From: a virus
Taxonomy: Duplodnaviria > Caudoviricetes
IMG/VR virus record: IMGVR_UViG_3300021255_001366
Location: 59,920 to 123,919 of that record
Strand: one strand, 5' to 3'
Length of the DNA stretch: 64,000 nucleotides
Shown here: one piece after another, positions 6,184 through 31,761 of the stretch
Layout of the letters: each line of letters begins with the position of its first letter
Position numbering within the stretch: position 1 is the first letter of the stretch
The notes under the pieces: model-generated
Databases searched by the model: none
What the model saw: only the letters and a program-made list of their open reading frames with translations
Told to the model about the DNA's origin: nothing
Position numbers and translations under genes: made by a program

Positions 6184-6669
6184 CTAAAACTTCAACATTT
6201 CATAACTGTCACGACGTGCCATTTTTACACCATATTCTTCATATATACTACGATGCGCCTTGATATAATCAAACTTATCTTCAATAATCTGTTCTGGAGA
6301 TGGATACATTATTGGCGCATATCCTTGCAAACTCGCTATACCATGTAAACCACTATAAACTCTGTCAAATACATGTAAAGGATCAGATTCTGATCCGGTA
6401 TAAACATTTGGTATTTCATCAACCAATAATTCAACACCGCCAGTAAAACTATTTCCGTGACTCTTATGATAACGTTTATAAACATATTGAAAATTCCCAT
6501 AACGATCATAATATTTTGGTTTATACGAATAAAACTTATTTATTGCGCTTTGAGTTGTTTCCGTTAATTCATCCGCAATTTTACGTGTAATGTGTTTAGC
6601 AATATTCTTGCAATAATTTTGAATATCACGTTCTAGAGTTTCATACAACTCTTCGATTTTTTTTTGCAT
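6184..6669 (-). CDS. Hypothetical phage protein, possibly tail-associated (YKPKYYDR motif)
   Basis: 161-aa ORF with an RBS, directly upstream of the tape-measure ORF. Confidence 0.5.
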   Translation of the reverse strand: MQKKIEELYETLERDIQNYCKNIAKHITRKIADELTETTQSAINKFYSYKPKYYDRYGNFQYVYKRYHKSHGNSFTGGVELLVDEIPNVYTGSESDPLHVFDRVYSGLHGIASLQGYAPIMYPSPEQIIEDKFDYIKAHRSIYEEYGVKMARRDSYEMLKF

Positions 6670-24035: not shown

Positions 24036-24944
24036 TTATATGTATTTCCATATATAACCATTAATAATACAACTTCCTTTTAAAATAGCATTTCCTATAG
24101 TTTCACTATTTAACTCTTCTTTGACGCTTTTTAATGACGGAAAAACTTTAATCAAATTATTACATAAATCAAACTGTCCAACAGATTTTCCTCTCTTTTT
24201 ATAGTCAACAGGATATTTATCAAAACAATCTCCTTTATATCTATAAACAAAACCATCAATATTATATTTATATCCGCCACAACAATCTCGTATTTTTCTA
24301 CGCATTTTTTTATCATCAGTAATTTTATTTATACATTCAAAAGATTGTAAGAAATTCCCATTTAAATCATACATATCAACACCTTTATTTTTAAAAATCA
24401 TATCTGTCTTGCATTCTTCGCCAGCATACGACCACAAATATCCTGCAACAGAACCATTTCTATCTCCCCTACAACAATGACCAATCGATGCCTTATCAGC
24501 TCCTACAGATTGAGCTGCAAGAGTAATAGATTCAAATTCTTTTATAAATATACCATCCAACGAATATTGCCACACTGGAATACCTTTGTAACCATAATCA
24601 TCTCCTCCGGCAGAAATATTATATCCATACATTGAATTATTTGACTTATATTTTTTTATATAGTAGCGTTCAAATTTTTTTAACATCATTACCAAATGGT
24701 TTAAGTCAACATCATTAAGTTCCTTCAATACCGAACACGAAAAATGTTCAGTACCAAGATCTCCAATTATTAAATCAAATGGAGTAACGTCTGAAACTTT
24801 AGTTTTTTTATGAGCTTTTAAATGTTGTTGAAATCTTTTCTGTATAGTCTGCCTTGTTTGTCCTATATAAACCTTATTGTTAATATCATTACAAATAATA
24901 TATATATAACCTTCCCACAAGCCAGTCTCTTGATTATATGCCAT
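24036..24944 (-). CDS. GIY-YIG homing endonuclease with NUMOD1-like repeats
   Basis: GYIYIICNDINNKVYIGQT, RFQQH, ERYYI, YGYNIS, and three repeats of the form V.QY.LDG.FIK.F.S. Confidence 0.85.
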   Translation of the reverse strand: MAYNQETGLWEGYIYIICNDINNKVYIGQTRQTIQKRFQQHLKAHKKTKVSDVTPFDLIIGDLGTEHFSCSVLKELNDVDLNHLVMMLKKFERYYIKKYKSNNSMYGYNISAGGDDYGYKGIPVWQYSLDGIFIKEFESITLAAQSVGADKASIGHCCRGDRNGSVAGYLWSYAGEECKTDMIFKNKGVDMYDLNGNFLQSFECINKITDDKKMRRKIRDCCGGYKYNIDGFVYRYKGDCFDKYPVDYKKRGKSVGQFDLCNNLIKVFPSLKSVKEELNSETIGNAILKGSCIINGYIWKYI

Positions 24945-25037
24945 AATTAATCTCTCCTTTCTTAAACAAAAAAAGAAGAGCGGGAATACAGCCCACCCAA
25001 AAGAGCAAAATCGAAAAACAGTCGAAAGCTCTAAAAA

Positions 25038-25259
25038 TTAATTCTTTATATACTGAACACCATAAAAGTCATTAAACAACAATTTATTTGTGGTCGTATA
25101 CTTTACTTTTTTCTTTTCAAAAAACGTCTTATTAATCTTTAAACGCTCCTCGTCATTTAGAAAATACCAGCACTTACCATCTTGACCAACGACGCTAAAG
25201 CCTTCGTCTTTAAGCAACATAGCAGTACCAAGATCATCTGTTAATATGAATTTATCCAT
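25038..25259 (-). CDS. Small hypothetical protein
   Basis: Likely real start MDKFILTDD after an aagga-type RBS; the upstream part of the tracked ORF lies in hairpin-rich sequence. Confidence 0.5.
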   Translation of the reverse strand: MDKFILTDDLGTAMLLKDEGFSVVGQDGKCWYFLNDEERLKINKTFFEKKKVKYTTTNKLLFNDFYGVQYIKN

Positions 25260-25289
25260 GTCATCATCCTTTTCTTCATATAAAAGTCC

Positions 25290-25976
25290 CGTAGCCACAT
25301 GCATATGACTACGGGCAATTTGTCGGGACACACCCGACGGACAATCTAAAATTCCATCCGCCAATACCCAAGAGCGAAGAGTAGTTTGAGTACATAACTC
25401 AGGTACAAACATTCGCAAACCGACCTTTTATATTGCGGTAATCGGTCTCCGCATGGGTTCTGTTTGGTTTTAAATTAACGGCTTCGTCAGCCAAAAGTTG
25501 TATGGTTATCCGATATTGCAGTGTTTTACAGATTCGTCATCTAACCACACGAACACCTCTCGAAACGTGCCTCCTCGGAATAGGGCTACACCAGTACCAT
25601 CACGCACCTACGTGTTTAGGTCTTTTCGTTGACCACTTATATTGGTTTAATGTCTCAATACCGACAATAAAAACCCACCGTTGTAGCATAGGTCGTGGAA
25701 CACCTACCGTACCATCCTTGGGTATAACCCTCACACTTTCCTTGCAATCGGTAAATGACTATAAAGCTTCTCACTTGAATTTTAAGGTGGACGAGATTTC
25801 CCACCAGTAGAGTTATTGCGCATTAAGGTTACTTTGCTTACCTCGTTACTGTCGGTTGAGGTTGCCGACTCCTATATCAAACCACTGATTAACCTGACTC
25901 AGTAGTCGAATCCTATAGTGGAAGCGACGGCTTCCACATAATAATATATAACCCGTCACAGCATTGCCATGACGGG
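25290..25976 (-). ncRNA. Candidate large structured ncRNA (ROOL/GOLLD-sized)
   Basis: About 700 nt with no credible ORF, more than 10 visible hairpins, and a possible closing helix between 25908-25915 and 25347-25354. Confidence 0.55.
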
Positions 25977-26007
25977 CGCATCTCATTCGTCTTAACAAAC
26001 GAGCAGC

Positions 26008-27618
26008 TTATCTATTTCGTGAACGTTCACCTTCCGGCGAAAGTTCTTCAGCTGGCTTTTCCGGGGCGCCTTCTCCAACTTCTCCTTTTTCACCATCATT
26101 ACTTGTAGTATATGAGCTTTGAAGAGGGTATTGCATTAAGTTTTGTAAGCCTAACACTTGTGTTTCAAATAATAGACTTGCCATAGTTTCCTTTTCTGAG
26201 AAACCAAGAAGAGTGCCATAAGCCAATCTATAAGAATAACTATATTGGTTTGATTCTAATAACGCATTTCTATAATCATCCTTAGTAAAAATTGTAACTG
26301 GCATTAAATGAATAGGACAGTAGTTAGAAACATTCAGCGCTAATTGCAAATTAATCCAAGCATTAATCTGAGGCAATACACTACTTAACACATAAGCAGA
26401 TTCTGATTTTAAAGCCGCATTAATTAATGCAGAGTTGTTAACCAACTTATTTCCGTTTAACAATGCTCCAACACCACCAGCCGAACTCAAGATTTGTTGT
26501 TGCGAATTCTCAACTCGATTTACATCGTCAGATACATTATCAGAAAAATCGATTGTCTTAAGTTCATCTCCGGGAATAACAGCGCTTGATACGCCATCTG
26601 GTATTGCGTTGTCGGCTGCTATTTTAAAATAATCTATAGCCAAATCAGGTGTGATTTCAAACTCATCTGGACTCTTTGCAGAATTCATGACCTTAAGCGG
26701 CATATAAATCATTCTATAAAAACTGAGTTTATCTGCACTGGACTGCACATCTGCCAAATCATTAAGATTGGCAAGTCCGAGTAACATCGGAAGCAGTGGG
26801 GGAATAATAGCGTCCATTAAATCAGTTCGAAACTTAACCACAAACGAATACTCTGCTGGCACATGAACATACTTAACGCCAGTTTTATCGTATTCGTCCC
26901 ACATAGAAGATAAGGGTTCGCCTAAATATTCTATTAACGCTTGGCGTTGCGCCGATTTCCACTTGCTCATATCGAGTGCCATGCCGTAACAAGATGAATC
27001 ATTAACCGTATAAATACTATCGATAATAGCCTCATTAGGATCAATTCGCCACATAAACGAACCAGTGTCATCATGGAAAAACAAGTTAAATGAAACGTCC
27101 TCAATCCACATATTAACAAGAGGGGTGTTCATAATATTCTCCAAACCAACCTTATCCATAAAGTCTATGGTAGACTGAAACTGTTTCAACGCCTTAGTAG
27201 CATCCATTCCCTTAACAAATGAATACGGTGGCTCTATGCTACGACAATCAAGGCAATACATATCTGCATATGCGTATATCATCTTTTGATATATTGGAGA
27301 CCTATAAAAAAGATATCTACTAGCGTTAATCAAATTCTTTGAATTTGCATAAATATTACCAGTAAGATACCCTTTGATAGTGTTTTTATCTGTGCTTGTC
27401 AAAGAAAGGGTAGCGGCATTTTTAGTAATATCCCTAATAGTCTTCATTACCTTTTCTTCTTTAGCATTCGCATAATGTTTCATTTGTTTTTCTTCTTCAA
27501 GTTTAAATGTTTCTCGAATTGCAGCTACAGATTGATTCGGTTTTCCTACATTGCCATTTACTGTAGCTACCTTTTCTTTTGAGACGCTACTTGCGTCAAT
27601 ATCTTTTTTCTCCGCCAT
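26008..27618 (-). CDS. Portal protein
   Basis: 536 aa directly after the large terminase; helical, with a SSYTTS...GAPEK C-terminal tail. Confidence 0.75.
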   Translation of the reverse strand: MAEKKDIDASSVSKEKVATVNGNVGKPNQSVAAIRETFKLEEEKQMKHYANAKEEKVMKTIRDITKNAATLSLTSTDKNTIKGYLTGNIYANSKNLINASRYLFYRSPIYQKMIYAYADMYCLDCRSIEPPYSFVKGMDATKALKQFQSTIDFMDKVGLENIMNTPLVNMWIEDVSFNLFFHDDTGSFMWRIDPNEAIIDSIYTVNDSSCYGMALDMSKWKSAQRQALIEYLGEPLSSMWDEYDKTGVKYVHVPAEYSFVVKFRTDLMDAIIPPLLPMLLGLANLNDLADVQSSADKLSFYRMIYMPLKVMNSAKSPDEFEITPDLAIDYFKIAADNAIPDGVSSAVIPGDELKTIDFSDNVSDDVNRVENSQQQILSSAGGVGALLNGNKLVNNSALINAALKSESAYVLSSVLPQINAWINLQLALNVSNYCPIHLMPVTIFTKDDYRNALLESNQYSYSYRLAYGTLLGFSEKETMASLLFETQVLGLQNLMQYPLQSSYTTSNDGEKGEVGEGAPEKPAEELSPEGERSRNR

Positions 27619-31263: not shown

Positions 31264-31396
31264 TATATAGAACACATCGGCTCATTACCCCTGTACACTG
31301 GGAACACAACCGACCACTTACGGATAATACATGTATTATCCTTTTCGCAGGCTCTCGTTCTATTTGCGCTAAGCATGATTTAATGTGTTTGCCCAT

Positions 31397-31465
31397 TGAA
31401 AATGTAGGATTCGAACCTCGCCCCTACAGCCCAAGTGTAGTGTGCTACCATTACACCACATTCTC
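31397..31465 (-). tRNA. tRNA-Pro(TGG)-like
   Basis: Acceptor gagaatg/cattttc, D-arm tggtgtaatggtagcac, anticodon arm ctaca-ctTGGgc-tgtag, T-loop ggttcgaatcc; no encoded CCA. Confidence 0.7.
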
Positions 31466-31761
31466 AAAAAAACAGCATGGGATTATCTAGTACTCCCACG
31501 CCATGTACACTAACTAGAATCCGCCCCCTCTCTACCTTTAGGGAGGCAGCTATTGTCATAAGATTGTTGCCAATAAATGGTGTTGTTTTTTTCTTAGCTT
31601 TGGCTAAAGATTTGCTTCCAAATTCTTCATACCATTCTGGCGAATCCTTTGGAAAAACATTCTGCTAAAAATCTATAACATCACTTTTAGTCATCACTCC
31701 GGAGTTACACCGAATTAACCATGATTATGAACCACAGTAAGATACCCAACCTCCCGCCAGC

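What the first reader, a model, noticed from the sequence alone, without database searches (positions are those of the whole stretch)
25290..25976. Candidate ROOL-sized structured RNA between portal and prohead protease
Seen: about 700 nt of non-coding sequence inside the head operon with many stems. On the minus strand these include ggc-tgacgaa-gcc, agat-gacga-atct, ggtc-aacgaaaa-gacc, ggtgg...ccacc, gtcgg...ccgac, gtggaagc...gcttccac and gtcggg-tgtgt-cccgac. The recurring (U)GACGAA loops suggest tertiary contacts. A possible closing helix (25908-15 with 25347-54) spans ~570 nt, and strong hairpins bound both sides. Inference: a late-expressed large ncRNA, either a ROOL/GOLLD relative or a new class. 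Co-transcription with the portal raises a speculative packaging or assembly role.
Basis: partly seen in the sequence, partly recalled or inferred. Interest (0 to 1): 0.72.

Follow-up and report, generated by a model that had tools for sequence, protein, structure and literature searches.

The report
Modular pseudoknotted RNA locus after portal gene
The gene-free 750 bases after this rumen phage's portal gene encode a real, conserved folded RNA of a kind not yet catalogued: a 206-base double-pseudoknot core followed by swappable small RNA knots. It is not a ROOL or GOLLD relative, and it most likely acts on a host factor, possibly as decoys against RNA-controlled suicide defences.

Summary
Window 25260-26007 (minus strand) is a 748-nt non-coding gap between the portal gene and a small head-operon ORF. 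It is GC-enriched, hairpin-dense and bounded by terminator-like hairpins.

It is not ROOL, GOLLD, a group I intron, tmRNA or any other Rfam 15 family, even at E<=10.

A 206-nt core (25672-25877) recurs in 19 distinct rumen/gut phage contigs, including an Eubacterium ruminantium phage contig. Its ten helices, two of them pseudoknots, are 96.8% paired, and 19 of 48 pairs show compensatory changes (0/500 shuffles reach this).

Downstream lie modules built mainly of compact H-type pseudoknots with A-rich loops. These modules are shuffled or replaced between phages. The core stays 70-88% identical in phages whose portals are only 33-36% identical.

One relative carries the element between two tRNAs, about 360 nt from a true ROOL, so it is a separate class.

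Sister arrays, including the closest relative (portal 84%), carry toxin-less abiF antitoxin motifs. One has a loop identical over 22 nt to the E. ruminantium AbiF leader.

Best reading (about 0.4): a trans-acting RNA array aimed at host factors, probably anti-defence decoys. No toxin partner was found for this window's own modules or for the core.

This scan noted the same RNA class earlier on other genomes.

The parts
25951..26007 (-). Two hairpins directly after the portal stop codon. The second (25951-25977) is terminator-like.
   Evidence: this sequence is not shared with relatives
25880..25937 (-). Window-specific 5' module of two hairpins (25918-25937 and 25880-25907). At 25902-25917 it holds an 81% copy of the first 16 nt of the core.
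25672..25877 (-). Conserved 206-nt core with helices P1 to P7 and two pseudoknots. P1 25851-25869; P2 domain 25806-25850; P3 25786-25805; P4 25734-25757; P5 25720-25730; P6/P7 25683-25713. PK1 pairs the P3 loop (25792-25796) with 25769-25773. PK2 pairs the P7 loop (25695-25698) with 25675-25678.
   Evidence: alignment A3 of 19 distinct homologues; RNAalifold; pair counts 96.8% paired, 19/48 compensatory, 0/500 shuffles; model R1 scores 165-233 bits in 22 full-length hits
25614..25666 (-). Module A: an H-type pseudoknot (25640-25666) plus hairpin unit a (25614-25634) followed by UAAAC. The counterpart of the first knot in L025 gives a sub-threshold GP20-b (RF03003) hit.
   Evidence: compensatory changes in both stems among relatives
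25501..25613 (-). Module B (~113 nt). It contains hairpin b (25530-25542) enclosed by a covarying 6-bp helix.
   Evidence: 92-96% identical in L020 and L025, 81-82% in longer collinear HSPs with L036 and L038, at different distances from the core; found only in core-bearing arrays in IMG/VR
25480..25492 (-). Hairpin unit c with an ACGAA loop, followed by an A-rich tract.
   Evidence: a 75% repeat of unit b with its flanks
25356..25465 (-). Module C (110 nt): a closing helix (25454-25458 with 25366-25370) and two H-type pseudoknots (25419-25452 and 25379-25406).
   Evidence: 93-95% identical in L016, L017, L020 and L022, 540-1215 nt into their arrays; compensatory changes in L019 in the closing helix and both knots; found only in core-bearing arrays
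25281..25338 (-). 3' end: a hairpin (25322-25338) and a terminator-like hairpin (25288-25315) with a U-run, just before the ribosome-binding site of the small ORF.
   Evidence: window-specific
26008..27618 (-). Portal gene (context; upstream neighbour in 17 of 19 loci).
25038..25259 (-). Small conserved head-operon ORF (73 aa; context). It is also present in relatives that lack the RNA.

Best explanation
The gap encodes, in the same sense as the head genes, a composite non-coding RNA locus. It opens with window-specific hairpins. A 206-nt core follows, folded into ten helices including two pseudoknots; this core is a new RNA family confined, as far as searched, to phages of rumen/gut Clostridia. 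After the core come interchangeable modules (A, B, C and small hairpin units) built mostly of compact H-type pseudoknots with A-rich third loops. The locus ends in a terminator-like hairpin. Shown: the fold, its conservation, its modularity and its fixed position. Inferred: the RNAs act in trans on a conserved host factor rather than on the phage head. The most likely job is anti-defence. Under this reading the locus is a plug-in array of RNA decoys that mimic the RNA antitoxins of host abortive-infection toxins (type III-like systems such as AbiF). The mimics would keep those toxins bound after the phage shuts off host transcription. The constant core is either a decoy for an unidentified widespread target or a platform that stabilises, expresses or processes the array. 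Confidence that this is a real, new structured-RNA locus is about 0.95. Confidence in the decoy function for this window is about 0.4.
For: Structure: 96.8% of cells are paired, 19 of 48 pairs have compensatory changes, 0/500 shuffles reach this, and slid controls pair only 34-46%. Both pseudoknots covary. Distribution: one copy per phage in 19 distinct contigs, 17 of them directly after the portal gene. No Rfam family matches. Host-directed rather than head-directed: the core is 70-88% identical, and modules B and C are 92-96% identical (local HSPs), in phages whose portals are only 33-36% identical. Arms-race style turnover: the closest relative, L039 (portal 84%), shares the core but none of the 3' modules. 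Decoy evidence in sister arrays: the last module of the L039 array is an abiF-type hairpin. Its 22-nt loop is identical to the leader of the Abi_2 gene of E. ruminantium, and its stem is fully compensated. Similar motifs occur in the arrays of L017 and L035 (sub-threshold) and at L002:52-88 (44.4 bits, over the cut-off). No Abi_2 gene is present in these phage records, nor among the L039 ORFs scanned. The abiF RNA is an experimentally shown antitoxin of AbiF (PMC12373285). The geometry of the window's units (short stem 1, very short first loop, 5-bp stem 2, A-rich loop) matches the H-type knots of type III antitoxins such as CptI of the related Eubacterium rectale (PMC4627078).
Against: No module of this window, and not the core, was linked to any toxin. 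There were no abiF, drum or ToxI-like hits at E<=10. There were no credible matches in 400 Lachnospirales genomes, in 150 Lachnospiraceae genomes by covariance model, or in 72,556 plasmids and 50,697 phages at E<=1. The units are single copies, not the tandem repeats of true type III antitoxins. Modules B and C were found only together with the core, which also fits a single composite RNA. Expression and processing are untested. H-type pseudoknots are common folds, so the geometric match is weak evidence.
Confidence: 0.4

Rival explanations
1. One large ornate RNA in the manner of ROOL or GOLLD. Core and modules would fold together into a single ~600-nt particle (possibly self-assembling) with a still unknown phage function.
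For: In L028 the element fills exactly the 580 nt between two tRNAs, so RNase P/Z processing would release one ROOL-sized RNA. It sits in an RNA island with a true ROOL, a tmRNA and more than 12 tRNAs. Modules B and C were never found without the core. The whole gap folds better than shuffles, z = -3.3.
Against: Array length runs from about 430 to about 1300 nt downstream of the core. Module order and content differ even between close relatives. No conserved long-range helix joins the core to the modules or the 5' end to the 3' end. There is no sequence or model similarity to ROOL or GOLLD.
Confidence: 0.2
2. A cis-acting element of the head operon. The core would bind host RNA polymerase or RNases to promote read-through (put/EAR-like antitermination), or to control processing, stability or translation of the downstream head-gene mRNA.
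For: The position between the portal and the next head genes is fixed in 17 of 19 loci. Terminator-like hairpins lie on both sides. High conservation despite portal divergence fits binding to conserved host machinery.
Against: The L028 copy lies among tRNAs, not head genes. Phages with equally distant portals (L004-L012) have no gap and no core. The variable modules are unexplained.
Confidence: 0.15
3. The core is a new self-cleaving ribozyme that cuts at its own 5' edge and frees the array from the portal mRNA.
For: Conservation begins abruptly at the invariant UAGGAG. This lies 0-5 nt after the portal stop in L030 and L040, and directly after a tRNA in L028. About 66 positions are invariant, and the architecture is a double pseudoknot, as in HDV-like and glmS ribozymes.
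Against: No match to any ribozyme family in Rfam. No test of cleavage was possible. Several relatives have further modules upstream of the core.
Confidence: 0.08
4. A packaging or assembly RNA that binds the portal or prohead (pRNA-like).
For: It is adjacent to and co-oriented with the portal gene.
Against: The RNA does not co-vary with the portal: 85-88% identity against 33-36%. L028 has it away from head genes. There is no similarity to phi29 pRNA in Rfam. Related phages lack it.
Confidence: 0.04

Closest known systems
ROOL RNA (Rfam RF03087; PMC5737381, PMC12286853)
   Same: A large phage-associated non-coding RNA of rumen origin with several pseudoknots. One copy (L028) lies in the same tRNA island as a ROOL and is of the same size (~580 nt).
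   Different: No sequence or covariance-model similarity: no hit at E<=10, against 287 bits for the true ROOL next door. Only 206 nt are constant and the rest is mosaic. The usual site is after the portal gene, not beside tRNAs.
GOLLD RNA (Rfam family; PMC12286853)
   Same: A large phage-borne structured RNA of unknown function with a variable part and a conserved part.
   Different: No model match. This element is much smaller, and its variable part consists of exchangeable small knots.
Pseudo-ToxI of Pectobacterium phage PhiTE and type III antitoxin RNAs (ToxI; CptI of Eubacterium rectale, PMC4627078)
   Same: Compact H-type pseudoknots of about 30-45 nt with an A-rich loop. A toxin-less copy carried by a phage is the proposed mode of action. 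(PhiTE is cited from my own knowledge and the scan's notes, not re-read here.)
   Different: Here the units are diverse single copies, not tandem repeats of one unit. They are attached to a 206-nt core. No cognate toxin is known for the window's units.
abiF RNA motif (RF03085) / RCd22 antitoxin of AbiF (PMC12373285)
   Same: Toxin-less abiF motifs end the sister arrays of L039, L017 and L035 at this same locus. The L039 loop equals the E. ruminantium AbiF leader over 22 nt.
   Different: The window's own array has no abiF motif.
GP20-b RNA motif (RF03003) and drum RNA (RF02958) of Weinberg et al. 2017 (PMC5737381)
   Same: Sub-threshold hits inside sister arrays. GP20-b scores 27.6 bits on the L025 counterpart of module A. 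drum scores 26-33 bits in L017, L020 and L035.
   Different: All are below the curated cut-offs. None is reported in the window itself. Neither covers the core.

Membership tests
ROOL (RF03087) | Match to the Rfam covariance model at or above 99.1 bits | tested here: not met
   No hit at the gathering score or at E<=10 on 24900-26300. Positive control: L028 269-900 scores 287 bits.
ROOL (RF03087) | One conserved ~580-nt architecture (six multistem junctions, three pseudoknots; PMC5737381) | tested here: not met
   Only a 206-nt core is conserved. The 3' part is mosaic and runs from 430 to 1300 nt.
GOLLD | Match to the Rfam covariance model | tested here: not met
   No hit in the window, the rest of the genome or 20 related loci.
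Group I intron (RF00028) | Model match, and interruption of a host gene | tested here: not met
   No hit in the gap, while the model finds an intron elsewhere in this genome at 54 bits. The portal is complete and ends at the same stop codon as in L002.
Type III antitoxin RNA (ToxI/CptI/TenpI) | Tandem direct repeats of one unit | tested here: not met
   No tandem repeats. Only dispersed repeats of 16-21 nt, 75-81% identical.
Type III antitoxin RNA (ToxI/CptI/TenpI) | Located directly upstream of its endoribonuclease toxin gene | tested here: not met
   The neighbours are the portal, a 73-aa ORF and a GIY-YIG endonuclease. No Abi_2 gene in the whole phage genome. ToxN/CptN/TenpN were not searched in this phage genome.
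Type III antitoxin RNA (ToxI/CptI/TenpI) | H-type pseudoknot of about 36-45 nt with an A-rich loop | tested here: met
   PK1 and PK2 of the core, the module A knot and the two module C knots all show compensatory changes. Geometry as described for CptI.
Type III antitoxin RNA (ToxI/CptI/TenpI) | Binds and inhibits, and is processed by, its toxin | not testable with these tools
   Needs co-expression and biochemistry.
abiF RNA motif (RF03085) | Model match / conserved loop sequence | tested here: not met
   Window: none. Sister arrays: L002 44.4 bits; L017 26.6; L035 22.1. L039 is 22 nt identical to the host AbiF leader.
phi29-type packaging RNA (pRNA) | Model match; co-evolution with the portal/connector | tested here: not met
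   No Rfam hit. RNA 85-88% identical where portals are 33-36% identical.
tmRNA / tRNA | ARAGORN or Rfam detection | tested here: not met
   Only tRNA-Pro at 31395-31467.

The most novel reading that the evidence does not exclude
The 206-nt double-pseudoknot core is a new functional RNA (catalytic, or binding a conserved host factor). It would serve as the fixed platform of a phage 'RNA anti-defence island': a hot spot after the portal gene into which phages plug and swap small RNA knots, some copied from host antitoxin RNAs with their promoters, to disarm several RNA-controlled abortive-infection systems at once.
Probability: 0.25. Interest if true: 0.85.

Novelty: new variant of a known kind. 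Interest (0 to 1): 0.64.

Why it matters
The core is a well-supported, complex RNA fold with about 66 invariant positions and two covarying pseudoknots. It is missing from Rfam and from the papers searched. It is kept nearly unchanged across phages whose structural proteins have diverged almost beyond recognition. That degree of constraint points to an important interaction with the host. If the array reading is right, phages of rumen Clostridia carry exchangeable libraries of RNA decoys against RNA-antitoxin-controlled suicide systems. That would extend the single known pseudo-ToxI example into a general, modular counter-defence strategy. It would also give a direct way to find the toxins and RNAs involved. 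If the reading is wrong, the core is still a new candidate for the small group of large bacterial/phage RNAs with 'sophisticated' but unknown biochemistry.

Tried and rejected
1. Rfam 15 on the window, the rest of the genome and 20 related loci. Nothing covers the element.
2. RNase P idea. Short motifs recalled CR-I/CR-V, but it was dropped: no RNase P model hit at E<=10, and in L028 the RNA starts at the core with no P1-P3.
3. tmRNA/tRNA: none.
4. Group I intron with the nearby GIY-YIG gene. Rejected: the portal is intact and there is no model hit, although the model finds an intron elsewhere in the genome.
5. Hidden coding. The ORFs in the gap are not conserved. Variation is compensatory in stems, and many indels are not multiples of three.
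6. BLAST of the element against 400 Lachnospirales genomes. Only the E. ruminantium phage contig matched; the other hits lie in unrelated sequence and look like chance.
7. Core model on 150 Lachnospiraceae genomes. Two hits of 16-19 bits with large deletions, the one checked inside an ORF; treated as chance.
8. Plasmids and GenBank phages at E<=1: no match.
9. A second weak model hit in the window (6283-6469, 20.8 bits) lies inside a 161-aa ORF and is probably chance.
10. The invariant start of the core tested as a phage promoter motif. It occurs only twice, both times inside the gap.
12. Identity of the 610-aa downstream protein: nothing beyond phrog_3313.
The coordinates were then read by hand.

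Full report
WHAT IS THERE. The window is the second half of a complete 123.9-kb phage genome with direct terminal repeats. On the minus strand the order is: a 681-aa ORF, unannotated here, at the position where L039 has a large-terminase gene; the portal (26008-27618; phrog_2739, 8e-61); a gap; a 73-aa ORF (25038-25259); a GIY-YIG/NUMOD1 homing endonuclease (24036-24944); and a 610-aa protein of unknown function (phrog_3313).

The gap, 25260-26007, is 748 nt long. Terminator-like hairpins close both ends. GC rises to 42-47% against 30-40% in the flanks. The minimum free energy lies 3.3 sd below shuffles.

WHAT IT IS NOT. Rfam 15 finds nothing in the gap at its curated thresholds, or at E<=10 with permissive filters. 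That excludes ROOL, GOLLD, group I and II introns, RNase P, tmRNA, pRNA, riboswitches and known ribozymes. The library does work on this material. It finds a group I intron elsewhere in the same genome. It also finds a textbook ROOL at 287 bits in a related contig.

RELATIVES. The portal protein and short conserved motifs were used to scan IMG/VR, JGI metagenomes and GTDB genomes. These scans recovered 19 distinct copies of the element. One copy lies on a 47.7-kb phage-like contig assembled with Eubacterium ruminantium ATCC 17233, which gives a host lead. In 17 of the 19 loci the element follows a 490-550-aa portal ORF and precedes a 560-650-aa ORF. More distant relatives of the window's portal (L004-L012, 33% identity) have no gap and no core.

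THE CORE. A stretch of about 206 nt (window 25672-25877) is constant in all copies (alignment A3). RNAalifold plus inspection gives ten helices. Two are pseudoknots: the P3 hairpin loop pairs with a segment about 20 nt downstream, and the P7 hairpin loop pairs with the 3' end. On A3, 96.8% of cells form standard pairs and 19 of 48 pairs carry compensatory changes. None of 500 column shuffles reaches any of the five measures. Sliding the 3' partners by 1-3 columns drops pairing to 34-46%. About 66 columns are invariant. A covariance model of the core (R1) scores 165-233 bits on every full-length copy and finds exactly one copy per phage, including in the whole genome of this window.

THE REST IS MODULAR. 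Downstream of the core the window carries module A (25614-25666), module B (25501-25613), a small hairpin unit (25480-25492), module C (25356-25465) and two terminal hairpins. These modules recur in other phages at 92-96% local identity, but at different distances from the core and in different company. Module C, for example, starts 540 to 1215 nt into other arrays. Array length downstream of the core start ranges from about 430 to about 1300 nt. Some relatives also have one or two other modules upstream of the core. The window's own first 130 nt and last 95 nt are unique to it.

Most modules resolve into compact H-type pseudoknots. These have a 4-6-bp first stem, a very short first loop, a roughly 5-bp second stem drawn from the hairpin loop, and an A-rich connecting loop, often UAAA(A)C. 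Compensatory changes occur in both stems among relatives. In relatives the first of them carries a different loop that pairs with a matching downstream segment. So these loops more likely form second stems than long-range tertiary contacts.

The proposed 570-nt closing helix can form. Both of its arms lie in window-specific sequence, so it has no comparative support.

A SEPARATE CLASS FROM ROOL. In L028, part of a 130-kb phage contig, the element fills exactly the 580 nt between two tRNA genes. It begins with the core immediately after the upstream tRNA. It lies about 360 nt from a true ROOL, in an island with a tmRNA and more than a dozen tRNAs. This shows that it is an RNA gene in its own right and distinct from ROOL. 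It also keeps alive the reading that core plus modules can be released as one ROOL-sized RNA.

WHOM DOES IT TALK TO? Portal identity to the window is 84% (L039), 72-75% (L002, L022, L030, L037) and only 33-36% for L017, L020, L023, L025, L036, L038, L040 and L042. Core identity across those last eight phages is still 70-88% (85-88% in L017, L020, L025 and L038). L038 is collinear with the window through core, A, B and C at 82%. Conversely L039, the closest relative, shares the core but none of the 3' modules.

An RNA that bound the portal or prohead should diverge with them. This pattern instead fits an interaction with a conserved host component. Together with rapid cassette turnover, it is what accessory counter-defence loci look like.

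A DIRECT LINK TO RNA ANTITOXINS, IN SISTER ARRAYS. Notes from earlier agents of this scan on a related 142-kb phage proposed that such arrays are antitoxin decoys. I treated this as a lead and tested it independently.

- E. ruminantium encodes an Abi_2/AbiF protein.
- The hairpin directly upstream of that gene shares a 22-nt identical loop with the last module of the L039 array. The 7-bp stem is fully replaced by a compensating one, and even part of the upstream -10 region is shared.
- The same motif ends the arrays of L017 and L035 (26.6 and 22.1 bits to Rfam abiF, sub-threshold). It also occurs at L002:52-88 at 44.4 bits, over the cut-off.
- No Abi_2 gene is present in the phage records that could be searched, including this window's complete genome and the 95%-complete 142-kb phage, nor in the ORFs of L039.
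- The abiF RNA has been shown experimentally to neutralise AbiF by direct binding, like a type III antitoxin (PMC12373285).
- Sister arrays also give sub-threshold drum and GP20-b hits. The 2017 survey noted a compelling association between drum RNAs and particular nearby protein genes, and a possible relationship of those genes to DUF3800 genes (PMC5737381).

LIMITS FOR THIS WINDOW. None of the window's own modules, nor the core, could be tied to a toxin:

- no Rfam antitoxin-type hit;
- no credible match in 400 Lachnospirales genomes by BLAST;
- no core match in 150 Lachnospiraceae genomes by covariance model;
- no match in plasmids or GenBank phages at E<=1;
- no tandem repeats.

Modules B and C were found only in core-bearing arrays. 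Expression could not be examined. The decoy function is therefore an inference from sister arrays, fold class and evolutionary behaviour. I put it at about 0.4.

The main rivals are a single large ROOL-like RNA (0.2), a cis-acting element of the head operon (0.15), a self-cleaving core (0.08) and a packaging RNA (0.04).

VERDICT. It is wrong that the RNA is a ROOL/GOLLD relative, and probably wrong about a single 600-nt fold and a packaging role. The same RNA class was noted earlier in this scan on other genomes (e1-5759594 for the core; e1-5824104, -108 and -117 for the array reading). My analysis agrees with the core description. It adds an independent host-phage test of the decoy idea and the contrast between portal and RNA divergence.

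Noticed in passing
window 24036-24944 (-): A free-standing GIY-YIG + NUMOD1 homing endonuclease gene lies between the small head ORF and the 610-aa gene. It is absent at this position in L002.
   Followed up: partly
L058:18536-18975 (-) = genome 58,536-58,975, just outside the window: Group I intron at 54 bits (Rfam cut-off 50) in the same phage genome. The host gene was not examined.
   Followed up: no
L028:269-6487: RNA island of a 130-kb phage contig: a true ROOL (287 bits), a tmRNA, at least 13 tRNAs, and this element between two of the tRNAs.
   Followed up: partly
L002:52-88: abiF RNA motif above the Rfam cut-off (44.4 bits), 5 kb upstream of the portal in a phage fragment with no Abi_2 gene. 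This is a second orphan antitoxin site outside the array.
   Followed up: partly
L063:1310-1375 versus L039 array 655-720: The phage abiF-type module shares with the E. ruminantium AbiF leader both the 22-nt loop and about 10 nt around the presumed -10 box. This suggests capture of the host locus together with its promoter.
   Followed up: partly
window 25902-25917 (-): An 81% copy of the first 16 nt of the core lies 41 nt upstream of the core, at the start of the window-specific 5' hairpin. Its meaning is unknown. It is not a genome-wide motif.
   Followed up: partly
window 6283-6469 (-): Weak full-length hit of the core model (20.8 bits) inside a 161-aa ORF. Probably chance.
   Followed up: partly
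window 31395-31467 (-); L056 9631-12957: tRNA-Pro in the window and three more tRNAs in the first 13 kb of the genome.
   Followed up: no
L039:658-2604 (-): In the closest relative, the large ORF after the array (648 aa) carries a CBM_5_12 carbohydrate-binding module. Its relation to the window's 610-aa protein was not checked.
   Followed up: no
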